64,000 bases of DNA from an uncultured Gammaproteobacteria bacterium. GTDB taxonomy: Bacteria > Pseudomonadota > Gammaproteobacteria > JAURND01. The translations under genes and the position numbers were made by a program. Shown here piece by piece: positions 5,781 through 44,249 of the stretch (the stretch's first letter is position 1; each line of letters opens with the position of its first letter). The notes below the pieces were generated by a model. It saw only the letters and a program-made list of their open reading frames with translations, was not told where the DNA came from and ran no database searches. Location of the stretch: the NCBI GenBank assembly GCA_963714975.1, contig CAVQQD010000002.1:992001-1056000 (forward strand), in the 5' to 3' direction.

Positions 5781-6092
5781 ATGGCTCAAAAAAAGAAATG
5801 GTCAGCAACGATAAAATTTGAAATTGCTGTGCTGGCAGTCAAGGGGGAAACGACCCTAAATGAACTATGCAAACGATATCAGGTAGCTCCAAGCCAAGTG
5901 CACGCGTGGAAAAAAGAACTCTTGGAACAAGGCGCGGAATTATTCGGCAAGGGAGAGAAGTCTAAAAGAATCATTTCAGATCAAGAGGATGTGAAGAAGC
6001 AACTCTATGAGAAAATAGGACAGCTCACTATGGAGCGTGATTTCTTAAAAAAAAGTTGGGAACGATTCCAGGGGAGCAACGACGAGGATTAA
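5781..6092 (+). CDS. IS3 transposase OrfA (HTH)
   Basis: GGAGG SD; KFEIAVLAVKGETTLNELCKRYQV..QVHAWKK; LYEKIGQLTMERDFLKK; A8G -1 slip motif at 6047-6055. Confidence 0.9.
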   Translation: MAQKKKWSATIKFEIAVLAVKGETTLNELCKRYQVAPSQVHAWKKELLEQGAELFGKGEKSKRIISDQEDVKKQLYEKIGQLTMERDFLKKSWERFQGSNDED

Positions 6093-33989: not shown

Positions 33990-35176
33990 GACTGCTTCGC
34001 TCCGGACTTGGAATTTTCACTAGAAGCTTCGCTAATGCTCACCGCTGAACCATTTCTGAGCTTAAGCTGACCCGCGGTGACCACCCGGTCTCCTGGTTTC
34101 AGTCCGCGCAAAATGGCGGTTTGTTCATCTCGAGTTTCGCCAACAGTGACGAAAGTTTGGGTCACTATCCACTTGGCCTTTCCATTAACTTCCCTCTCGG
34201 CATTACTCCTTCTCCCCTTGTGGGAGAAGGTGGCCGCAGGCCGGATGAGAGGTGAAGATTTCACTACATAGATTATTTCACCATAGGAATTAAAGCTGAC
34301 AGCCGTTTGTGGCACAGTCAAATAGGTTTGCGGCTTGCCAGTAGTAATAGTAACTGGCGCAAACATACCCGGTTTCAGTTCATATTTAGGATTAGGGAGA
34401 GTTGCTTCTATTTCCACATTACGCGTGGCAGTTTCTACCATGGGTTCAATCGTAGTAATTTTTCCCCGAAAAACTTTGTTAGGCACGCTGTCTGCTGCTA
34501 GGGTTACATTCTGTCCTACTGCTAATTTTTCCAGCATTTGCTGTGGTAAATAAAAATCGACATAAATGGGATCAAAGGATTGTAAATTGACAATCTTATC
34601 TCCTGGATTCAGATATTGGCCTGGATTGACCGCATTGACGCCTAAGCGCCCGCTAAAAGGAGCGCGAATAATTTTTTTATTTACCGTGGCTAGTTGCTGT
34701 GCTACTTGAGCTTGGGTGCTTTTTAAATTTGCAGTGTCGGTATCCAACACGGCTTTACTAACAGCTTGAATGGCATACTGAGCTTTGTCGCGGTTGTAAT
34801 TAATTTCCGCTAAAGTGGCCTGAGCTTGTAAGGAATGTAGCAAGGCAACATCAGTATCGATATTAAGTTCAACCAGTAATTCACCCTGTTTTACCTCAGC
34901 GCCTGGTTTAAAGTAAATGGTGCGGACCATGCCGGCTAATTCAGTAGTCACATTCACACCACGAATAGCCCGAACACTACCCACGGCCTTGAGGGTGGGC
35001 TGCCATTGGGTGTAGTGCGCTATTGCAGTTTCAACCGCAATCGGTTTTCCTGCTGCAGCTGCAGCAGCTCGGCCAGCAATATAGCCCGCAATGGCCTTAT
35101 AAATGAAAATAACGGTGAACAATGCTCCTAAACAAAGGAGCATTAACATCATCCTTTTTTTGATCCGCTCTTCCAA
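33986..35176 (-). CDS. RND periplasmic adaptor (MFP) with in-frame repeat insertion
   Basis: IRAPFSGRLG, LKPGMF, GLKPGDRVVTAGQLKL. Confidence 0.94.
   Translation of the reverse strand: MEERIKKRMMLMLLCLGALFTVIFIYKAIAGYIAGRAAAAAAGKPIAVETAIAHYTQWQPTLKAVGSVRAIRGVNVTTELAGMVRTIYFKPGAEVKQGELLVELNIDTDVALLHSLQAQATLAEINYNRDKAQYAIQAVSKAVLDTDTANLKSTQAQVAQQLATVNKKIIRAPFSGRLGVNAVNPGQYLNPGDKIVNLQSFDPIYVDFYLPQQMLEKLAVGQNVTLAADSVPNKVFRGKITTIEPMVETATRNVEIEATLPNPKYELKPGMFAPVTITTGKPQTYLTVPQTAVSFNSYGEIIYVVKSSPLIRPAATFSHKGRRSNAEREVNGKAKWIVTQTFVTVGETRDEQTAILRGLKPGDRVVTAGQLKLRNGSAVSISEASSENSKSGAKQS
34207..34252. repeat. Complete family A unit inside the MFP coding sequence
   Basis: tccttctccccttgtgggagaaggtggccgcaggccggatgagagg, encoding PLIRPAATFSHKGRRS. 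Confidence 0.9.
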
Positions 35177-37105: not shown

Positions 37106-37235
37106 CCTCTGTAGGGGAAAAAAATAATTTCCCCCCCACTCTCCGTCATCCCTCGCTTCGCTCGGGATGACGGAGAGCCAAGCTCCTCGGGATGACGGAG
37201 AGCCTAACCTCCCTTTTCCAAAGGGAGGGATTATT
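37106..37235. repeat. Family C units nested inside a family B element
   Basis: cctctgtaggggaaaaaaataatttcccc [ctctccgtcatccctcgcttcgctcgggatgacggagag ... ctcgggatgacggagag] cctcccttttccaaagggagg. Confidence 0.8.
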
Positions 37236-37903: not shown

Positions 37904-39574
37904 ATGGCGCAATATATTTATACGATGCAAGATGTGGGCAAAATAGTCCCGCCTAAACGAGAAATTCTAAAAAAAATCTGGTTGTCATTTTATCCAGGAG
38001 CCAAAATTGGGGTATTAGGCTTCAATGGCTCAGGTAAATCCACATTGCTAAAAATCATGGCTGGTGTCGATAAAGATTACGAAGGTAAGGCATTTCCCCT
38101 CTCTGGAACTAAAATTGGCTATTTACACCAAGAACCGCAACTCGATCCTAAGAAAACGGTGCGAGGAAATATTGAAGAAGGCATGGGGGAAGAACTGAAA
38201 TTACTTGAACGCTTTGATGAAATTAGTCTGCGTTTCGCCGAGCCAATGAGTGAAGAAGAAATGACCCAATTATTGGATGAACAAGGGGAATTACAACAAA
38301 AAATTGACGCAGCTGGACTTTGGGAACTAGGCCACAAATTAGAAATTGCCGCAGATGCGTTGCGCTTGCCTCCCTGGGATGCCGAGGTCAGCAAACTCTC
38401 CGGGGGTGAACGACGTCGCGTGGCATTATGTCGTTTGTTACTTTCAAAGCCTGACATGCTCTTACTGGACGAACCGACTAATCACTTAGATGCTGAAAGT
38501 GTGGCCTGGCTGGAACGATTTCTCCATGATTACTCGGGTACGGTGGTCGCAGTAACTCATGATCGCTATTTTCTCGACAATGTGGCTGGCTGGATTTTGG
38601 AATTGGATCGAGGTGCGGGTATTCCCTATGAGGGAAATTATTCTGCCTGGTTAGAACAAAAAGAAAAACGTCTAGAACAAGAGCATCGCCAGAAAGAAGC
38701 CCATGCTAAATCCCTGCAAGCCGAATTAGAATGGGTTCGCAGTAACCCCAAGGGCCGCCAAGCTAAAAGTAAAGCCCGTCTTGCTCGCTTTGAAGAAATG
38801 AATTCTCGCGAATTTCAAAAACGCTCTGAAACGCAAGAGTTATATATCCCACCCGGTCCACGCTTAGGTAGTTTAGTTATTGAAGTCGAAAATTTGAGTA
38901 AAAAATTTGCTGATCGTTTATTATTTGAAAACTTGAGTTTTAATATGCCTCAAGGGGCTGTGGTTGGCATTATCGGTCCTAATGGCGCTGGAAAATCTAC
39001 CTTGTTTAAACTCCTGGTCAATCAAGAACAACCCGATAGTGGCAGCATTCGTCTCGGTGAAACTGTGCGATTAGCCTATGTGGATCAAAGCCGTGATTCT
39101 TTAGATGGGACTAAAACGGTGTGGCAAGAAATATCCAATGGTCAGGACTTATTAACCATCAATGACTATCAAATTCCTTCTCGCAATTATGTTGGGCGAT
39201 TTAATTTTAAAGGACCCGATCAGCAAAAATTCATTAAAGATCTTTCTGGCGGTGAACGCAATCGAGTGCATTTGGCAAAATTATTAAGCAGCGGCGGCAA
39301 TGTGTTATTGCTCGATGAACCCACCAATGATCTTGATGTGGAAACTCTCCGCGCCTTAGAGGAGGCGATTTTAAGTTTCCCAGGTAACGTGATGGTTATC
39401 TCTCACGACCGCTGGTTTTTAGATCGAATTTCTACTCACATTCTTGCTTTTGAAGAAGATAGCACTGTGACTTTCTTTGCCGGGAATTACACGGAATATG
39501 AACAAGATCGAATCCGGCGCTTAGGTGAGCAAGCCAAGCAACCGCATAGGGTGAAGTATAAGAAGCTGAAATAA
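37904..39574 (+). CDS. ettA: Energy-dependent translational throttle ABC-F protein
   Basis: [41 protein letters not shown]. Confidence 0.97.
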
Positions 39575-39587
39575 CTTAGGACACAAT

Positions 39588-39703
39588 CCCTTCTCCCCTT
39601 GGGGAGAAGGTGCCGAAGGCGGATGAGAGTCTTTGCAATGGCTTTCAGCGTTTTGAAACACCCTCTCCCGCCTTCGGCACTCTCTCCCGCAAGCGGGAGA
39701 GTG
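39588..39703. repeat. Inverted doublet of family A units
   Basis: cccttctccccttggggagaaggtgccgaaggcgg ... ccgccttcggcactctctcccgcaagcgggagag. Confidence 0.85.
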
Positions 39704-39751
39704 GATTTCCGTGCCACACCACTCTCTTAATTTGGGAGTCATCTAGTTACA

Positions 39752-39973
39752 TTAAAGAAACACCTCTTCTAAGGTGGAAGCCTCAAAAATACGCTCACCC
39801 CACAACAATAAAGTTTCAGCACTTGCCTGTTGAATTCGCGCAAGATAATTAGCAGGTATATGAAGGAAACGACGCTGTAATTGGCGAATTAATAGCTTAG
39901 ATTCACCTTGCTGTATACCTTGTTTGATCCCCTTTTCAATACCAAGTCTCTCTGGAGTAGTAATATATCTCAT
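39752..39973 (-). CDS. Putative intragenic small protein (RpnS-type antitoxin), 73 aa
   Basis: In-frame ATG 39973 preceded by GAGGAGG at 39982-39988. Confidence 0.65.
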   Translation of the reverse strand: MRYITTPERLGIEKGIKQGIQQGESKLLIRQLQRRFLHIPANYLARIQQASAETLLLWGERIFEASTLEEVFL

Positions 39974-40714
39974 CTGTTTTTCCTCCTCGATGTTTTTTAT
40001 TGTTTGATTGTATATTGGTTCTTGCTCTTTCGGAAGAGCAATAAGCCAATCGATCAGAGTAAATAATTGAATAATATCGCGTTTAGTATAACCCTTTTTA
40101 TACAACTGACGAGTCAAAGCAGTCTTGGCATGTAAACGCGCTTCGCTATCCTGCCGTGTTTTCAGTGCCACTAATTGTGCCAATATCACCATGGCAAAAC
40201 GATTGTTCATGGCTTCTAGTTCTTGCCAGCGCTTTTGATAATCCAATATTTTTATAACTAAATAACGCACTTCCTGATAGGTTCCAAAACATGCTTCACG
40301 GTAATAATCAGTGCGCCAATCTGGATCGTTATCAATTAAAATAGCAATGCTAACAACGGGTAGATTCCAAAAATCAGAAATTCGATACCGATAAATCATC
40401 ATCCGACGCGGTAAGTTTCCTCTCTTAGGATCCCTTTCAACCTCAAGGTGACACAATATTAAAGTTTGTTTTCCATTTTTTCCATGGACTTTGATTAATT
40501 TATCTGCAATGCAATTACCAATTGCCGCATGACGTGTTATTTTACTTAATTCTTTATCAAGTGATTCCCAATTTTTGGACCAATCGATTTGCGTGGCAAT
40601 ATCCGGCAAGCAAAATTCCATAAAATCACGAAAATATAATCCTAAACCGTATTTCCAAGGACGATCAAAATCAGCCCGGGTATTCTTGTTTTTTGTTTTT
40701 AGCTCATGAGTCAT
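39752..40714 (-). CDS. Rpn-family PD-(D/E)xK nuclease / putative transposase, copy 1
   Basis: DRPWK, IDWS..LDKEL, ADKLIKV, HLEVE, LIDWLIALP; G(I)xx repeats and DUF4351-like tail. Confidence 0.85.
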   Translation of the reverse strand: MTHELKTKNKNTRADFDRPWKYGLGLYFRDFMEFCLPDIATQIDWSKNWESLDKELSKITRHAAIGNCIADKLIKVHGKNGKQTLILCHLEVERDPKRGNLPRRMMIYRYRISDFWNLPVVSIAILIDNDPDWRTDYYREACFGTYQEVRYLVIKILDYQKRWQELEAMNNRFAMVILAQLVALKTRQDSEARLHAKTALTRQLYKKGYTKRDIIQLFTLIDWLIALPKEQEPIYNQTIKNIEEEKQMRYITTPERLGIEKGIKQGIQQGESKLLIRQLQRRFLHIPANYLARIQQASAETLLLWGERIFEASTLEEVFL

Positions 40715-40825
40715 GAACTCATATTAAAAGAAACAGCGGAATGCACAATACCGTAGTCCCGGAGTTTTTATACCTTCTCCCCTTTTGGGGAGAAGGTGCC
40801 GAAGGCGGACGCTACCCTTGCCACT

Positions 40826-41029
40826 TTATCGACCCAACCTCACTCTTCTCCTCTCACATCCCAAATCGCCACAAAATGCTGTCCTACCACCCCACAATGG
40901 CTGCGAGGATTTAAAGCAGACAACATTCTGATTTGACAATGGAAATACCACGAACGATTGACACGTGAGAGAAAAATAATTGAAGCTGTTTTGCACGGAC
41001 GCAAGATGCGTTAAACTGACTGCAGCCAT
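40826..41029 (-). CDS. 67-codon ORF covered by SymR-like RNA, copy 1
   Basis: AAGGAG SD + ATG (MAAVSLTH...); TTGCCA-17-GATAAT promoter at 41100-41128. Confidence 0.45.
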   Translation of the reverse strand: MAAVSLTHLASVQNSFNYFSLTCQSFVVFPLSNQNVVCFKSSQPLWGGRTAFCGDLGCERRRVRLGR

Positions 41030-41099
41030 GGTGAATCTCCTTCTTAGATTCCAGTGGTTAGCGTGTGGCCAGGTGTTAGTGCACCTACCACACGCGCCT
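41024..41099 (+). ncRNA. SymR-like cis-antisense RNA, copy 1
   Basis: AGCCAT..ATCTCC..GTGGTTAGCGTGTGG..AGGTG-ttagtg-CACCT-ACCACACGC; TAAACT -10 six nt upstream. Confidence 0.6.
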
Positions 41100-41173
41100 A
41101 TTATCATTAGTTTATTTTAAGCTGGCAACTGTTTTTTTAAAAAATGTAACTCTCCAGAGGTCATCTAGTTACA

Positions 41174-41431
41174 TTAAAGAAACACTTCTTCTAAGGTGGA
41201 AACCTCAAAAATACGCTCACCCCACAACAATAAAGTTTCGGCACTTGCCTGTTGAATTCGCGCAAGATAATTAGCAGGTACATGGAGGAAACGACGCTGT
41301 AATTGGCGAATTAATAGATTAGATTCACCCCGCTGTATACCTTTCTTTATGCCTTTCTTTATGCCTTTCTGTATACCTTGTTTGATCCCCTGTTCAATGC
41401 CAAGTCTTTCTGGAGTAGTAATATATCTCAT
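41174..41431 (-). CDS. Putative intragenic small protein (RpnS-type antitoxin), 85 aa
   Basis: In-frame ATG 41431 preceded by GAGGAG at 41441-41446. Confidence 0.65.
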   Translation of the reverse strand: MRYITTPERLGIEQGIKQGIQKGIKKGIKKGIQRGESNLLIRQLQRRFLHVPANYLARIQQASAETLLLWGERIFEVSTLEEVFL

Positions 41432-42172
41432 GTGTTGTTTCTCCTCGATGTTTTTTATTGATTGATTGTATATTGGCTCTTGCTCTTTGGGAAGAGCAAT
41501 AAGCCAATCGATCAGAGTAAATAATTGCATAATATCGCGTTTAGTATAACCCTTTTTATACAACTGACGAGTCAAAGCAGTCTTGGCATGTAAACGCGCT
41601 TCGCTATTCTGCTGTGTTTTCAGTGCCACTAATTGTGCTAATATCACCGTGGCAAAACGATTGTTCATCACCTCAAGCTCTTGCCAACGCGTTTGATAAT
41701 CCAATATTTTTATAGCTAAATAACGCACTTCCTGATAGGTTCCAAAACATGCTTCACGGTAATAATCAGTGCGCCAATCTGGATCGTTATCAATTAAAAT
41801 AGCAATGCTAACAACGGGTAGATTCCAAAAATCAGAAATTCGATACCGATAAATCATCATCCGACGCGGTAAGTTTCCTCTCTTAGGATCCCTTTCAACC
41901 TCAAGGTGACACAATATTAAAGTTTGTTTTCCATTTTTTCCATGGACTTTGATTAATTTATCTGCAATGCAATTACCAATTGCGGCATGGCGTGTTATTT
42001 TATTTAATTCTTTATCGAGTGATTCCCAATTTTTGGACCAATCGATTTGCGTGGCAATATCCGGCAAGCAAAATTCCATAAAATCACGAAAATATAATCC
42101 TAAACCGTATTTCCAAGGACGATCAAAATCAGCCCGGGTATTCTTGTTTTTTGTTTTTAGCTCATGAGTCAT
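41174..42172 (-). CDS. Rpn-family nuclease / putative transposase, copy 2
   Basis: Near-identical to copy 1, with three additional 4-aa G-I-x-x repeats. Confidence 0.85.
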   Translation of the reverse strand: MTHELKTKNKNTRADFDRPWKYGLGLYFRDFMEFCLPDIATQIDWSKNWESLDKELNKITRHAAIGNCIADKLIKVHGKNGKQTLILCHLEVERDPKRGNLPRRMMIYRYRISDFWNLPVVSIAILIDNDPDWRTDYYREACFGTYQEVRYLAIKILDYQTRWQELEVMNNRFATVILAQLVALKTQQNSEARLHAKTALTRQLYKKGYTKRDIMQLFTLIDWLIALPKEQEPIYNQSIKNIEEKQHMRYITTPERLGIEQGIKQGIQKGIKKGIKKGIQRGESNLLIRQLQRRFLHVPANYLARIQQASAETLLLWGERIFEVSTLEEVFL

Positions 42173-42228
42173 GAACCCATATTAAAAGAAACAGAGGAAC
42201 GCACAATACCGTAGTCCCAGAGTTTTTA

Positions 42229-42371
42229 TCCCTTCTCCCCTTGGGGAGAAGGTGCCCCTTCGACAGGCTCAGGGCAGGCTGGCGGATGAGGGTGTTTAAA
42301 ATAGCTTAAAGCTACAACAGGACACCCTCATCCGGCCTGCGGCCACCTTCTCCCGCAAGCGGGAGAGGGGA
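42229..42371. repeat. Inverted doublet of family A units; first unit carries a ccttcgacaggctcagg insert in its loop
   Basis: ...gaaggtgcc[ccttcgacaggctcagggcaggct]ggcggatgagggtgt ... acaccctcatccggcctgcggccaccttctccc. Confidence 0.85.
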
Positions 42372-42426
42372 TTTCCGTGCCACCCACTCTCCTGCAGCAA
42401 TCCCTGCGGAAAAAGGGATTTGCAAG

Positions 42427-42828
42427 CTACTCCCAAAAATCCGTCTGCCCTTTTTGCACTCCTGCTAATAACCTCGCGCACAATTCATCGGTAAAAGGCT
42501 TATCAAACAGGCCATTGAGTTTTAGTGCCTTGGCTCGCGTATAACAGCTTTCCTCATGCACGGCATGGGCGGACAAGATGACAATCGGCACGTTCGCATT
42601 GCCACTTAAATGCTTACGCATAAGTTGGGCCAGATCGAGGCCATAGTAATCCGGGAGTCCAAGATCAAGTAAGACCAGGTCATAACGATTGGAAAATAAT
42701 TGAATGGCTTGGGTGCCATTCATAGCTAAATCGACTTGGCAGTTTGCTGCAGTGAAAATAGATTCGGCCGCTTTACTGGCCATTTTGTTATCCTCAACGG
42801 CGAGGACTCTGAATTGCTTGGTATTCAT
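42427..42828 (-). CDS. Single-domain response regulator (receiver only)
   Basis: VLAVEDN, LLDLGLPD..G, ILSAH, DKPF. Confidence 0.9.
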   Translation of the reverse strand: MNTKQFRVLAVEDNKMASKAAESIFTAANCQVDLAMNGTQAIQLFSNRYDLVLLDLGLPDYYGLDLAQLMRKHLSGNANVPIVILSAHAVHEESCYTRAKALKLNGLFDKPFTDELCARLLAGVQKGQTDFWE

Positions 42829-42964
42829 GATGGTTTGCTCCTATTGTTATCGTTAAAATGGATTCATCAAACCAAGAAATCTTAAGGAGTAATAGTGGCA
42901 GAGATTAAAGAGATGACAGGGCAGGAAATCAAATCGCTGCCCCGCCACCGCTACCCCTGCCACT

Positions 42965-43168
42965 TTATCGACCCAACCTCACTAGCCTCCTCCCACATCC
43001 CAAATCGCCACAAAATGCTGCCCTACCACCCCACAATGGCTGCGAGGATTTAAAGCAGACAACATTCTGATTTGACAATGGAAATACCACGAACGATTGA
43101 CACGTGAGAGAAAAATAATTGAAGCTGTTTTGCACGGACGCAAGATGCGTTAAACTGACTGCAGCCAT
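42965..43168 (-). CDS. 67-codon ORF covered by SymR-like RNA, copy 2
   Basis: AAGGAG SD + ATG; TTGCCA-17-GATAAT promoter at 43240-43268. Confidence 0.45.
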   Translation of the reverse strand: MAAVSLTHLASVQNSFNYFSLTCQSFVVFPLSNQNVVCFKSSQPLWGGRAAFCGDLGCGRRLVRLGR

Positions 43169-43239
43169 GGTGAATCTCCTTGTTAGATTCCAGTGGTTAG
43201 CGTGTGGACCAGGTGTTGGAGCACCTACCACACGCGCCT
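43163..43239 (+). ncRNA. SymR-like cis-antisense RNA, copy 2
   Basis: Same stems as copy 1, loop ttggag instead of ttagtg. Confidence 0.6.
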
Positions 43240-43295
43240 ATTATCATCAGTTTATTTTAATCTGGCAACTGCTTTTTAAAAAAAATTACTATCAC

Positions 43296-44249
43296 ATGTT
43301 AGCAACAGACAAAATTTTTCCAGTAGTTATTTTATGCACCTCAGGATTTGGCTTACTTGCTCCCCAGCTTTTTCTTTGGGCAAAACCCCATATTCCAGTT
43401 TTTTTAGGAATCATTATGTTTGCCATTGGCTTAACTTTAGAAGCTGGTGATTTTAAACAAACATGGAATTTACGTGCGCAAATAGTCATCATCATTATTT
43501 TAAAATATGCATTACTGCCAATGGTAGCCTTTTGTTTGGCAAAATTATTTGGATTAACTACAGAACAATATTTGGGTCTATTAATAGTGGCTAGCTGCCC
43601 AGGAGGAACTGCTGCTGCTGTTATGACCTACCTAGCCCGGGCGAATACCGCGTTAACTGTGGTACTAACTTTTTTATCCACAATAATCTCTCCTTTGATG
43701 ACACCATTGCTTATATTTTTGTTTGTTCACCAAGAAATTATAGTGCCATGGCAAAATATGATGAACACTATCTTCTGGGTCATGTTTTTCCCGTTGATGG
43801 ATGGCCTAATCCTCAGAAAAATAATAGGCACGAAAATAGGGGCTATTAAATCGTTCTTACCTATCCTGGCTATGCTATGTATCGCAATTATCATTGGCTG
43901 TGTCATTGCCCTTAACCGTCAAATGCTATTAGCACTTCCTGTGGCTGCAGGAGCAGCGGTGTTAAGCACCCATCTCTGCGGCTTAATTTTGGGCTATCTA
44001 ATAGCTAAATACATTTTTTGCTGGCACAAAAGTAATTGCCAAGCTACAGCATTTGAATTTGGTATGCAAGATTCTGGAATGGCGGTAATGCTAGCAACGA
44101 AATTTTTTAGTAATGCAGTGGCATTATGTGCTAGCTTGTATAGTCTCATCCAGAATCTATTAGGACCCATAGTCGCACGGTATTTTTCAATGCATAACAA
44201 TAAAGTAGGTTCGGCTTATCCCTTCTCCCGTAAGCGGAAGAAGGGATAA
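43296..44249 (+). CDS. Bile acid:sodium symporter (BASS) family transporter
   Basis: LGIIMFAIGLTL, CPGGTA, FEFGMQDSG; start moved to MLATD; C-terminus from a family A unit (44220-44246). Confidence 0.9.
   Translation: MLATDKIFPVVILCTSGFGLLAPQLFLWAKPHIPVFLGIIMFAIGLTLEAGDFKQTWNLRAQIVIIIILKYALLPMVAFCLAKLFGLTTEQYLGLLIVASCPGGTAAAVMTYLARANTALTVVLTFLSTIISPLMTPLLIFLFVHQEIIVPWQNMMNTIFWVMFFPLMDGLILRKIIGTKIGAIKSFLPILAMLCIAIIIGCVIALNRQMLLALPVAAGAAVLSTHLCGLILGYLIAKYIFCWHKSNCQATAFEFGMQDSGMAVMLATKFFSNAVALCASLYSLIQNLLGPIVARYFSMHNNKVGSAYPFSRKRKKG

What the first reader, a model, noticed from the sequence alone, without database searches (positions are those of the whole stretch)
39737..43286. Duplicated two-layer toxin-control locus: SymR-like antisense RNA module upstream of Rpn nucleases with intragenic antitoxin starts
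Seen: on the minus strand the order is [promoter, antisense-covered 67-codon ORF] - response regulator - repeat doublet - Rpn2 - [promoter, antisense-covered ORF] - partial repeat - Rpn1. This is a tandem duplication in which copy 1 lacks the regulator, with the junction at a family A repeat (40809). Known: Rpn proteins are toxic anti-phage nucleases neutralised by a separately translated C-terminal fragment, and SymR-type RNAs block translation of type I toxins. Inference: the antisense module may act as a leader or co-inherited second lock on Rpn expression. I do not know this combination from the literature.
Basis: partly seen in the sequence, partly recalled or inferred. Interest (0 to 1): 0.75.

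Follow-up and report, generated by a model that had tools for sequence, protein, structure and literature searches.

The report
Duplicated Rpn genes beside SymR-like RNA
Two tandem copies of an Rpn-type self-neutralising nuclease gene each sit next to a small cassette whose antisense RNA resembles the E. coli SymR antitoxin, but nothing found here shows that the two parts work together.

Summary
Window 39738-43284 is a tandem direct duplication (segments 92-97% identical). Each unit carries a 336-nt cassette (near-consensus promoter, Shine-Dalgarno, 67-codon ORF) and an Rpn-family gene. Only the upstream unit keeps a CheY-like receiver gene, and the deletion junction abuts a REP-like palindrome.

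The two large genes are DUF4351-type Rpn proteins. They have a conserved internal start (88 of 90 relatives ATG/GTG; 86 of 88 with a Shine-Dalgarno, against 9% of control codons) and 3 versus 6 four-residue repeats. These are the published features of RpnL/RpnS gene-within-gene toxin-antitoxins.

Opposite each cassette's leader lies a 76-nt two-hairpin element that is a sub-threshold Rfam SymR match. A model built from it finds the annotated E. coli symR exactly (30.7 bits; background at most 18.7 bits in 1.2 Mb), with 8 compensatory pairs. The ORF is not SymE and does not look protein-like.

The proposed coupling is not supported: 0 of 78 loci of Rpn relatives carry the cassette, and rpn arrays are known to arise by regional duplication. 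Most likely these are duplicated Rpn defence genes with a hitch-hiking SymR-like cassette. Both are known kinds; the one new variant is a SymR-like RNA with non-SymE cargo.

The parts
42949..43284 (-). Cassette M2: promoter, leader, 67-codon ORF (fuller, probably ancestral copy)
   Evidence: 95.8% identical to M1 over 336 nt; lies between the SBF transporter start (43296, + strand) and the receiver gene
43240..43268 (-). Sense promoter-like site TTGCCA-17-GATAAT of M2
   Evidence: 10 of 12 matches, joint best site in 39500-43400
43163..43238 (+). SymR-like two-hairpin antisense element of M2
   Evidence: Rfam symR 32.3 bits, full model 1-77; MFE -34.2 kcal/mol, z -4.43, against z -1.39 for the sense strand; own model R1 finds E. 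coli symR
42965..43168 (-). 67-codon ORF of M2 (coding status doubtful)
   Evidence: SD and ATG at the position homologous to the symE start. No Pfam match, no SymE similarity, AF2 pLDDT 33. One 68-aa relative, P0116.
42894..42964 (-). Long hairpin after the M2 ORF, possible attenuator or terminator
   Evidence: Fold of 42830-42975 (minus strand): -54.7 kcal/mol, z -4.70. The tail has 4 U in 8 nt, so the terminator scan did not flag it.
42427..42828 (-). Single-domain CheY-like receiver gene (133 aa), present in unit 2 only
   Evidence: Pfam Response_reg E 1.3e-16; best NCBIfam stretches are receiver domains of hybrid kinases
42228..42391 (.). REP-like GC-rich palindromic repeat doublet
   Evidence: Families D5, D7, D8 and inverted pairs I3-I6; further copies across the window
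41174..42172 (-). Rpn-like gene 2 (RpnL2, 332 aa)
   Evidence: DUF4351 E 1.6e-07; 95% identical to RpnL1
41174..41431 (-). Predicted internal product RpnS2 (85 aa) with six four-residue repeats
   Evidence: ATG behind GAGGAG; 12-nt tandem array at 41336-41379, 3.7 copies; sequence
40810..41144 (-). Cassette M1 (second copy)
   Evidence: promoter at 41128-41100, 10 of 12
41024..41098 (+). SymR-like antisense element of M1
   Evidence: Rfam symR 32.9 bits; MFE -34.9 kcal/mol, z -4.75. All 4 differences from the M2 copy fall at unpaired positions.
40826..41029 (-). 67-codon ORF of M1
   Evidence: Open in both copies; the 5 nucleotide differences give 3 amino-acid changes, all near the C-terminus
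40770..40809 (.). Single REP-like palindrome at the deletion junction
   Evidence: abuts the end of M1 at 40810
39752..40714 (-). Rpn-like gene 1 (RpnL1, 320 aa)
   Evidence: DUF4351 E 6.3e-08; AF2 model pLDDT 88
39752..39973 (-). Predicted internal product RpnS1 (73 aa) with three four-residue repeats
   Evidence: ATG at 39973 behind GAGGAGG; homodimer model score 0.75 against best control 0.00
39585..39726 (.). REP-like palindromic repeats flanking the array

Best explanation
The locus is a tandem array of two Rpn-family gene-within-gene toxin-antitoxin (defence) genes. It was made by direct duplication of a roughly 2.1-kb stretch of chromosome that also held a small SymR/symE-type cis-antisense cassette and an orphan receiver gene. 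One copy later lost the receiver gene in a deletion ending at a REP-like palindrome.

Rpn genes (inferred from the family). Each gene should give a full-length PD-(D/E)XK-type RpnL and, from an internal Shine-Dalgarno plus ATG, a short RpnS (73 or 85 aa). RpnS dimerises through its long first helix and neutralises its own RpnL. The copies carry 3 versus 6 four-residue repeats in that helix. In E. coli the repeat number decides which RpnS blocks which RpnL, so the two copies are probably non-interchangeable pairs.

Cassette (inferred from SymR). A near-consensus promoter drives a short sense transcript. Its leader, ribosome-binding site and first two codons are fully complementary to a 76-nt two-hairpin RNA related to E. 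coli SymR, which would block translation initiation. The cargo is a 67-codon ORF that is not SymE and may not encode a folded protein.

The cassette is most simply a passenger of the duplication, not a conserved regulator of Rpn.

Shown here: the anatomy, the family assignments, the conservation of the internal start, and the sequence-plus-structure likeness to SymR. Inferred: expression of either RNA, toxicity, neutralisation, and independence of the two parts.
For: Duplication.

Rpn identity
- DUF4351 is above Pfam's cut-off in both genes (33 and 31.7 bits against 25). 24 of 42 aligned relatives match DUF4351 and 11 of 42 match Transposase_31/YhgA-like.
- Zhong et al. 2023 state that RpnS can be annotated as DUF4351, that four-residue repeats begin 8-20 residues after the initiating Met, that only an RpnS with the same repeat number blocks RpnL, and that rpn arrays arise by tandem duplication of genomic regions (passages).
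- Here the repeats start at residue 11 of RpnS and number 3 versus 6.
- D71 and E91 are invariant in 42 of 42 relatives. hhalign places them on the D...E-x-Q stretch of E. coli RpnA (E 0.004).

Internal start
- The aligned residue is M or V in 40 of 42 proteins.
- ATG or GTG sits at the aligned codon in 88 of 90 gene copies from 78 loci. 86 of those 88 have GGAG, GAGG or AGGA at -17 to -5, against 99 of 1095 other in-frame ATG/GTG codons.
- Nearby Glu codons are GAG 143: GAA 52, against 1080: 1539 elsewhere.

Other Rpn features
- RpnS1 homodimer model: score 0.75, best of 3 controls 0.00. The runs agree in at least 96% of contacts and the partner's pLDDT is at least 85. In the tool's calibration the mark was reached by 20 of 30 solved pairs of one chain and 1 of 23 single chains. 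A like dimer (RpnAS) has been solved, so this pass may be memory.
- 8 of 78 loci hold 2-5 same-strand copies.

SymR likeness
- Rfam symR is the top non-miRNA family for both copies, with the full model matched (32.9 and 32.3 bits, E 0.0014 and 0.002 in 3.9 kb).
- Model R1, built only from the two window copies, hits the annotated K-12 symR end to end (L079 5836-5912, 30.7 bits, E 1e-05). The next best hit is 7.8 bits. The best non-self hit in 1.2 Mb is 18.7 bits, and it is a hairpin inside a coding gene.
- 27 of 27 pairs are standard in all three sequences and 8 pairs are changed on both sides. Slid controls give 0-1 such pairs.
- Three conserved G-U pairs exist only on the + strand, and the + strand folds much better than the sense strand.
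- Leader primary sequence against the E. coli symE upstream region: z 4.2, with 1 of 500 shuffles as high.
- The geometry is the same as in E. coli: the 5' end of the RNA lies opposite codon 2.

No conserved link between the parts.
Against: - Everything is in silico; no transcript or protein was observed.
- The Rfam symR score is about half the curated threshold (61 bits). Sub-threshold Rfam hits to hairpins are common noise in such DNA (spurious miRNA hits of E 5e-06 to 1e-03).
- The antisense promoter is only TTTGCA-16-TAAACT (8 of 12, read by eye). There is no canonical terminator after the element.
- The covariation count rests on 3 sequences, two of them nearly identical, in an alignment fitted to the model.
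- The window's Rpn proteins fail Pfam Transposase_31. They score 15-16.5 bits against a cut-off of 52.1 for TIGR01784.
- hhalign probability against RpnA is only 8%. Foldseek against PDB gave no match below E 0.05. A PDB sequence search gave nothing relevant.
- The window proteins carry E where 35 of 42 relatives have the motif Q, so nuclease activity is not assured.
- Independence of the parts is argued from absence elsewhere. M1 sits only 111 nt upstream of rpn gene 1, on the same strand, with no predicted terminator. Read-through is therefore not excluded.
- The rest of the source genome could not be searched.
Confidence: 0.6

Rival explanations
1. The cassette's sense promoter also transcribes the downstream genes (M1 into rpn gene 1; M2 into the receiver gene and perhaps rpn gene 2). 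The SymR-like RNA then gates Rpn expression on top of the intragenic RpnS antitoxin.
For: - Same strand and close spacing: the ORF stop at 40826 is 111 nt from the rpn start at 40714.
- No terminator-like site was found between them.
- No promoter-like site of at least 9 of 12 was found in the 86-nt conserved rpn upstream region.
- The cassette promoters are the strongest consensus matches in the locus.
- Both copies of the cassette are intact.
Against: - 0 of 78 loci of Rpn relatives carry the cassette, and 0 of 78 carry a relative of the ORF.
- The M1-rpn adjacency is a secondary product of a deletion.
- A GC-rich 11-bp REP hairpin lies between M1 and rpn gene 1. A 71-nt hairpin (z -4.7) follows the ORF in M2.
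- SymR in E. coli acts mainly on translation, with only a modest effect on mRNA level (review PMC4147584, passages). An effect on a gene 111 nt downstream would therefore need polarity or coupling that nothing here indicates.
Confidence: 0.12
2. The cassette is a decaying relic of a symE/symR-type locus whose toxin gene has been lost. The 67-codon ORF is open by chance, and neither RNA has a present function.
For: - The ORF has no SymE similarity and no Pfam match.
- AF2 pLDDT is 33.
- The language-model recognition score is low: 1180, against 2300 reached by 91 of 100 real families.
- GC by codon position is flat (0.45, 0.48, 0.48), unlike neighbouring genes.
- There is no transmembrane-like stretch (maximum 19-residue hydropathy 1.05).
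- No cassette was found in 185,579 species genomes with two peptide patterns.
Against: - The promoter hexamers, the Shine-Dalgarno, the ATG and every stem of the antisense element are identical in both copies. All 4 differences in the 76-nt element fall at unpaired positions. The duplication is recent, so this is weak evidence.
- A 68-aa relative with the same start and end exists elsewhere (P0116, 44% identity, library E 4.9e-04). An unconstrained sequence would rarely keep such a frame.
Confidence: 0.15
3. The + strand element is not a free-standing small RNA. It is the promoter-proximal leader of the SBF-family transporter gene that starts 58 nt downstream of it in M2. The M1 copy is then an inert by-product.
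For: - The transporter ATG at 43296 lies 12 nt beyond the cassette edge.
- It has no Shine-Dalgarno, and no promoter-like site of at least 9 of 12 lies on the + strand between 42830 and 43296.
- No canonical terminator follows the element.
Against: - The element matches E. coli SymR end to end. SymR is a discrete 77-nt RNA that also lacks a U-tract terminator.
- The M1 copy keeps all stems although it faces the 3' end of rpn gene 2 rather than a transporter gene.
Confidence: 0.08

Closest known systems
E. coli RpnL/RpnS gene-within-gene toxin-antitoxin and phage-defence systems (RpnA-E, plasmid RpnP2; Zhong et al. 2023, PNAS, PMC10400941)
   Same: - A C-terminal small domain annotated DUF4351.
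- An internal translation start with its own Shine-Dalgarno.
- Four-residue repeats (one hydrophobic residue plus glycine or charged residues; here G-I-x-x, compare KGIE in RpnC) starting 11 residues after the internal Met, with the number varying between copies.
- A predicted dimer through the long first helix.
- Tandem arrays, patchy distribution and no conserved neighbourhood.
- An N-terminal D...E-x-Q type motif aligned to that of RpnA.
   Different: - The window proteins belong to a distant subfamily found mostly in cyanobacteria, Chromatiales, Chloroflexota, Acidobacteriota and uncultured Gammaproteobacteria.
- This subfamily mostly fails the YhgA-like Pfam and TIGR01784 models.
- The window copies and their closest relatives carry E, D or H in place of the motif Q.
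- Nuclease activity, toxicity and defence are untested.
E. coli symE/symR type I toxin-antitoxin (Rfam RF01809; Kawano et al. 2007 as summarised in review PMC4147584)
   Same: - A 76-77-nt RNA with two hairpins, encoded opposite the leader, ribosome-binding site and start codon of a divergent ORF.
- The RNA's 5' end lies opposite codon 2.
- Shared sequence blocks in the linker and in the second hairpin.
- 27 of 27 pairs are kept, 8 of them through compensatory changes.
- Leader and promoter-proximal sequence are similar.
- Neither RNA has a U-tract terminator.
   Different: - The Rfam score is about half the curated threshold.
- The ORF is 67 codons, unrelated to SymE (PF08845), and not convincingly coding.
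- The LexA-box-like stretch of the E. coli promoter (consensus recalled from memory) is not intact here.
- The host is a poorly sampled gammaproteobacterium outside Enterobacterales.
- The cassette is present twice through duplication.
Tandem rpn arrays generated by regional direct duplication (Zhong et al. 2023, section on horizontal transfer)
   Same: Two same-strand copies with flanking sequence co-duplicated. 8 of 78 relatives' loci also hold 2-5 same-strand copies.
   Different: Here the duplicated unit carried along an unrelated antisense cassette and a receiver gene. One copy was then trimmed at a REP-like element.
IncQ plasmid R1162/RSF1010 antisense RNA (Rfam RF00043)
   Same: A weak match of the cassette's sense leader, including the Shine-Dalgarno and ATG-GCT (22-26 bits, E 0.12-1).
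   Different: The match is far below threshold (55 bits) and is absent from the true E. coli symE/symR locus. The plasmid record could not be fetched. This is a lead only.

Membership tests
Rpn (RpnL/RpnS) gene-within-gene toxin-antitoxin | C-terminal small domain of the RpnS type (DUF4351, PF14261) | tested here: met
   33 and 31.7 bits against cut-off 25; 24 of 42 relatives match; the link from RpnS to DUF4351 is stated in PMC10400941
Rpn (RpnL/RpnS) gene-within-gene toxin-antitoxin | Internal translation initiation site giving the small protein | tested here: met
   M or V in 40 of 42 proteins; ATG/GTG in 88 of 90 gene copies; SD in 86 of 88 against 99 of 1095 control codons; GAG-biased Glu codons. 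Translation itself was not observed.
Rpn (RpnL/RpnS) gene-within-gene toxin-antitoxin | Variable four-residue repeats starting 8-20 residues after the internal Met | tested here: met
   Repeats start at residue 11 and number 3 versus 6; criterion taken
Rpn (RpnL/RpnS) gene-within-gene toxin-antitoxin | N-terminal YhgA-like PD-(D/E)XK domain (PF04754 / TIGR01784 / COG5464) | tested here: inconclusive
   Window proteins: no PF04754 hit, and TIGR01784 at 15.3-16.5 bits against 52.1. 11 of 42 relatives hit PF04754. hhalign against RpnA: E 0.004, probability 8%. Foldseek against PDB: no match below E 0.05, with several PD-(D/E)XK nucleases among the weak rows.
Rpn (RpnL/RpnS) gene-within-gene toxin-antitoxin | Catalytic D, E and Q of the D...E-x-Q motif | tested here: inconclusive
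   D71 and E91 are invariant in 42 of 42. Position 93 is Q in 35 of 42 but E in both window proteins.
Rpn (RpnL/RpnS) gene-within-gene toxin-antitoxin | RpnS dimerises through its first helix | tested here: met
   Model only: score 0.75 against best control 0.00; symmetric contacts at 253-282. This may reflect the solved RpnAS dimer.
Rpn (RpnL/RpnS) gene-within-gene toxin-antitoxin | RpnL is toxic as a DNA endonuclease, RpnS neutralises it, and the system protects against phage | not testable with these tools
   Needs expression and phage assays
SymR RNA (Rfam RF01809) | Score at or above Rfam's gathering threshold | tested here: not met
   32.9 and 32.3 bits against 61; the true E. coli symR scores 95.3
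SymR RNA (Rfam RF01809) | Two-hairpin architecture conserved with the E. coli SymR | tested here: met
   Reciprocal hit at the exact annotated coordinates, 30.7 bits. 27 of 27 pairs kept, 8 compensatory, slid controls 0-1. Only 3 sequences, and the alignment is fitted to the model.
symE/symR type I toxin-antitoxin | RNA encoded opposite the ribosome-binding site and start codon of the target ORF | tested here: met
   43163-43238 (+) against ATG 43168-43166 (-); 41024-41098 (+) against ATG 41029-41027 (-). The criterion comes from PMC4147584.
symE/symR type I toxin-antitoxin | Target encodes a SymE (PF08845, AbrB-like) protein | tested here: not met
   No Pfam hit at E up to 10; tblastn best E 1.1; hhalign of profiles gives probability 0.14%; no nucleotide similarity in the ORF body (z -1.0)
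symE/symR type I toxin-antitoxin | SOS (LexA) control of the sense promoter | tested here: not met
   Read by eye on alignment A6: part of the E. coli box region is shared, but the second half-site is not. The LexA consensus is recalled from memory, not taken from a call.
symE/symR type I toxin-antitoxin | Antisense RNA is expressed from its own promoter, and the ORF product is toxic | not testable with these tools
   Only an 8-of-12 promoter-like site at the right distance, read by eye
CheY-like single-domain response regulator | Receiver domain (PF00072) | tested here: met
   E 1.3e-16, residues 8-115 of 133. The acidic pair, the Asp, the Ser and the Lys of the receiver signature are present by eye (signature recalled from memory).

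The most novel reading that the evidence does not exclude
SymR-type antisense gates are portable 5' cassettes that travel with unrelated cargo: SymE in enterobacteria, a 67-codon ORF here. In this genome one such cassette has been captured directly in front of an Rpn gene-within-gene toxin-antitoxin (M1 to rpn gene 1: 111 nt, same strand, no canonical terminator). RpnL1 would then be transcribed from an RNA-gated promoter. That would stack an RNA antitoxin layer on top of an intragenic protein antitoxin.
Probability: 0.12. Interest if true: 0.7.

Novelty: new variant of a known kind. Interest (0 to 1): 0.42.

Why it matters
- **Rpn family.** The results extend the RpnL/RpnS gene-within-gene principle to a large DUF4351 subfamily that standard Rpn models mostly miss. 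The internal start is conserved in 88 of 90 copies across many phyla. This gives a simple sequence signature (GAGGAG-type Shine-Dalgarno inside Glu codons, then ATG) for annotating hidden antitoxins.
- **Repeat divergence.** The two copies differ by three four-residue repeats. They are a natural test of whether repeat number makes paralogous pairs orthogonal.
- **Type I toxin-antitoxins.** A SymR-like RNA outside Enterobacterales, paired with a non-SymE ORF, would mean the antisense module and its cargo evolve separately.
- **Claimed coupling.** If the cassette and rpn were really coupled, this would be a new hybrid control scheme. The comparative data do not support that.

Tried and rejected
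- **Is the ORF a SymE?** Rejected.
- **Is the ORF a membrane type I toxin?** No hydrophobic stretch.
- **Relatives of the ORF.** The word-indexed search found none. The exhaustive search gave 6 hits. One (P0116) is a plausible relative. Of the three fetched, P0113 and P0117 look like translated CRISPR-repeat arrays (my reading). P0114, P0115 and P0118 were multi-stretch hits that I did not fetch.
- **Genome scan with the ORF alignment.** 202 pattern matches, none confirmed. The source genome is therefore not in that collection.
- **Cassette by blastn.** No match in plasmids or E. coli genomes. The phage collection was not searched.
- **Cassette near Rpn relatives.** None. The best model hit, L076 at 18.7 bits, lies inside an ATPase gene and matches one hairpin only.
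- **Synteny.** The flanking ABC-F, transporter and receiver genes are not near Rpn relatives.
- **R1162 antisense RNA link.** Weak and not shared by the E. coli locus. The RSF1010 record is not held.
- **Fold and family searches.** The fold search of the RpnL1 model was not significant. The PDB sequence search gave nothing relevant. PADLOC gave only a weak 90-residue 'putative invertase' model over the repeat region. The protein atlas gave no usable hit for the ORF.
- **Extra conservation of the cassette.** A 160-nt stretch has no differences, but this is not meaningful: the first 450 nt of the rpn genes have only 4 differences.
- **Hairpin plus U6 after rpn gene 2.** Weak (-7.3 kcal/mol, z -0.39).
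- **Literature.** Searches for SymR with Legionella or Coxiella and for DUF4351 (4 papers hold the term, 2 listed) found no report of this combination. Most subscription journals are not in that library.

Full report
**Observation.** The repeat finder and blastn show two direct repeat units.

- Unit 2 spans window 41160-43284 and unit 1 spans 39738-41159.
- Read on the minus strand, unit 2 holds a 336-nt cassette (M2, 43284-42949), a 120-nt spacer, a receiver gene (42828-42427), a doublet of GC-rich palindromic repeats (42391-42228) and a 332-codon gene (42172-41174).
- Unit 1 holds the cassette again (M1, 41144-40810), a single palindromic unit (40809-40770) and a 320-codon gene (40714-39752).
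- M1 and M2 are 95.8% identical over 336 nt, and the large genes are 92-95% identical.
- The cassette occurs only twice in the 64-kb window.
- Each cassette has TTGCCA-17-GATAAT. These are the two best of 16 promoter-like sites in 39500-43400, where shuffles give 8.1.
- Each also has a strong Shine-Dalgarno and a 67-codon ORF.
- The shared sequence of M1 stops exactly where the palindrome begins. So the missing receiver gene is a deletion with one end at a repeat.

**The large genes are Rpn-family genes.**

- Both match Pfam DUF4351 above its cut-off at the C-terminus.
- They miss Transposase_31 and score far below the cut-off of TIGR01784.
- Of 42 aligned relatives, 24 match DUF4351 and 11 match Transposase_31.
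- Zhong et al. 2023 (PMC10400941; passages read, supplements not opened) make five relevant statements:
  - Rpn proteins are toxic DNA endonucleases blocked by a small C-terminal protein (RpnS) translated from an internal start.
  - RpnS is annotated as DUF4351 in some species.
  - Four-residue repeats begin 8-20 residues after the internal Met and vary in number.
  - Only an RpnS with the same repeat number blocks its RpnL.
  - rpn arrays arise by tandem duplication of genomic regions.
- All the sequence-level features are present here. The internal ATGs sit at 39973 and 41431 behind GAGGAG. The repeats start at residue 11 of the short product. They number 3 in copy 1 and 6 in copy 2, and Tandem Repeats Finder sees the 12-nt array at 41336-41379.

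**Conservation of the internal start.**

- In the 42-protein alignment the residue is M in 30 and V in 10.
- I fetched 78 loci of relatives from species-representative genomes (497 confirmed matches, the best 80 kept). I located 90 gene copies in them.
- 88 of the 90 copies have ATG or GTG at the aligned codon.
- 86 of those 88 have GGAG, GAGG or AGGA at -17 to -5, against 99 of 1095 other in-frame ATG/GTG codons in the same genes.
- The Glu codons just upstream are GAG 143: GAA 52, against 1080: 1539 elsewhere.
- This is selection on the nucleotide sequence for a ribosome-binding site across cyanobacteria, Chromatiales, Chloroflexota, Acidobacteriota, Planctomycetota and others.

**Rpn features that are weaker or against the assignment.**

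- The AF2 model of RpnL1 is confident (pLDDT 88). Foldseek against PDB gave nothing below E 0.05, although several PD-(D/E)XK nucleases appear among the weak rows.
- A profile search of PDB sequences found nothing relevant.
- hhalign of the family profile against E. coli RpnA aligns the invariant D71 and E91 and the following Q with RpnA's D...E-H-Q stretch. The statistics are poor: E 0.004, probability 8%.
- Both window proteins carry E where 35 of 42 relatives have Q, so their activity is an open question.
- A homodimer model of the 73-residue short product passed its controls. The score was 0.75 against a best of 3 controls of 0.00. The runs agree in at least 96% of contacts and the partner's pLDDT is at least 85. 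In the tool's calibration the mark was reached by 20 of 30 solved pairs of one chain and 1 of 23 single chains. The contacts run symmetrically along the first helix. A similar dimer has been solved, so this shows likeness rather than independent proof.

**The antisense element resembles SymR.**

- At the curated threshold Rfam finds only a tRNA in the window.
- With E-value reporting, both cassettes give a full-length match to symR on the + strand: 41024-41098 at 32.9 bits and 43163-43238 at 32.3 bits, against a threshold of 61.
- Such scores alone are not trustworthy, because palindromes in this DNA give spurious miRNA hits of similar or better E-value. I therefore tested the likeness in the other direction.
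- A covariance model built only from the two window copies was run over a 10-kb stretch of E. coli K-12 with filters off. It hit 5836-5912 on the + strand, exactly the annotated symR, at 30.7 bits (E 1e-05). The next best hit was 7.8 bits.
- Over the window plus the 78 loci (1.2 Mb) its best non-self hit was 18.7 bits. That hit lies inside an ATPase gene and matches one hairpin only.
- In the three-sequence alignment all 27 pairs are standard in every sequence. Eight pairs are changed on both sides between E. coli and the window. Slid controls give 0-1 such pairs and 25-53% pairing. The alignment is fitted to the model and holds only three sequences.
- Three conserved G-U pairs are possible only on the + strand. 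The + strand folds at -34 to -35 kcal/mol (z -4.4 and -4.75), against z -1.4 and -2.2 for the sense strand.
- All four differences between the two window copies lie at unpaired positions.
- The primary sequence of the leader is similar to the E. coli symE upstream region (z 4.2; 1 of 500 shuffles as high). The ORF bodies are not similar (z -1.0).
- The geometry matches the published one: the RNA lies opposite the ribosome-binding site and start codon (PMC4147584, passages), with its 5' end opposite codon 2.
- Two weak points remain. The antisense promoter is only an 8-of-12 match read by eye. There is also no U-tract terminator, though the E. coli locus has none either.

**The ORF is not SymE and may not be a protein.**

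- There is no Pfam match at E up to 10, no tblastn similarity to SymE, and a profile-profile probability of 0.14% against 14 SymE proteins.
- AF2 gives pLDDT 33. The atlas recognition score is low and there is no usable hit.
- There is no hydrophobic stretch, and GC by codon position is flat.
- In favour of a gene: the Shine-Dalgarno and ATG sit at the homologous position, the frame is open in both copies, and one 68-residue relative has the same start and end (P0116; 30 of 68 identical; E 4.9e-04 for the whole library). P0116 is on a 523-bp contig, so it has no context.
- A scan of 185,579 species genomes with two peptide patterns from this alignment confirmed nothing. This also shows that the source genome is not in that collection.

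**Are the two parts coupled?** Evidence against:

- The cassette is absent from all 78 loci by blastn and by the covariance model.
- The ORF has no tblastn match in those loci, and the flanking genes are not conserved near them. A receiver gene lies within 10 kb in 1 of 78 loci, about 4 kb downstream on the other strand.
- 8 of 78 loci hold 2-5 same-strand rpn copies, so duplication is a habit of the family.
- In M2 the ORF is followed by a 71-nt hairpin (fold of 42830-42975: -54.7 kcal/mol, z -4.7). This makes M2 look like a self-contained unit.
- The deletion in unit 1 removed the 3' arm of that hairpin and brought M1 to 111 nt from rpn gene 1.

Evidence for:

- No terminator-like site lies between M1 and rpn gene 1, and no good promoter-like site lies directly upstream of either rpn gene.

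I therefore rate the cassette as a passenger. I leave about one chance in eight that the M1 promoter now contributes to rpn gene 1 expression in a way the antisense RNA can modulate.

**What stayed unchecked.**

- The rest of the source genome and the closely related genome (contigs of 1,240,461 and 866,452 bp).
- The metagenome and viral collections, which were closed.
- The DNA behind P0116.
- The phage collection, for the cassette.
- Any expression data.
- The organism itself. The window's Rpn proteins occur on one contig each, and the best species-representative match is 66% identical, from an uncultured gammaproteobacterial MAG.

**Verdict.** The Rpn half is a new member of a published kind. 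The SymR-like cassette with a non-SymE cargo outside enterobacteria is a new variant of a known kind. The proposed two-layer lock is not supported by comparative evidence.

Noticed in passing
window 16903-16949, 17174-17215, 28141-28193, 34208-34254, 55736-55790, plus 39585-39726, 40770-40809 and 42228-42391: A family of GC-rich palindromic (REP- or MITE-like) repeats is scattered through the window. One unit marks the deletion junction. A 47-nt stretch 85% identical occurs in a Verrucomicrobiales MAG locus (L058 402-448).
   Followed up: partly
window about 43016-43050 (ORF residues 38-54): The best-conserved stretch of the 67-codon ORF (also kept in P0116) resembles proteins that look like translated CRISPR-repeat arrays (P0113, P0117; multi-stretch hits, E 3e-05 to 6e-04). 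Tandem Repeats Finder reported no repeat array near the locus and no CRISPR array in the window. This may be chance.
   Followed up: partly
window 43161-43236 and 41022-41096, minus strand: The sense leader gives weak matches to Rfam RF00043 (R1162-like plasmid antisense RNA), including the Shine-Dalgarno and ATG-GCT (22-26 bits, E 0.12-1). The true E. coli symE/symR locus gives no such match.
   Followed up: partly
window 40436-40444 and 41894-41902 (residues 91-93 of both Rpn-like proteins): The E-x-Q motif conserved in 35 of 42 relatives reads E-x-E in both window copies. The closest relatives carry E, D or H there, so this subclade may have altered or lost catalysis.
   Followed up: partly
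window 43296 (+ strand): The SBF-family transporter gene starts 12 nt beyond the cassette edge. It has no Shine-Dalgarno and no promoter-like site was found, so its promoter must lie inside M2, possibly the antisense promoter.
   Followed up: partly
window 40085-40112, 41543-41570 and 41465-41493, minus strand: Promoter-like sites (9 of 12) lie inside both rpn genes, 27-105 nt upstream of the internal start. This fits the internal promoter drawn for E. coli rpn genes in Zhong et al. These are consensus matches only.
   Followed up: no
E. coli K-12 NC_000913.3 4568998-4569918 and 4579499-4579911 (L081, L079): In E. coli K-12 the rpnD pseudogene lies 9.6 kb from symE/symR, in the same variable region as mcrBC and hsdRMS. 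Rpn genes and SymR-type cassettes are therefore neighbours there too, at a distance.
   Followed up: no
L006 1145-5940; L039; L004: Some relatives carry head-to-tail arrays of up to five Rpn-like genes whose stop and start codons abut (Magnetococcales MAG).
   Followed up: no
window 50848-50921, 37161-37212 and 25600-25691: Other short tandem repeats: 21 nt x 3.5 at 100% identity, 25 nt x 2, and 46 nt x 2. The first two share a CTCGGGATGAC core.
   Followed up: no
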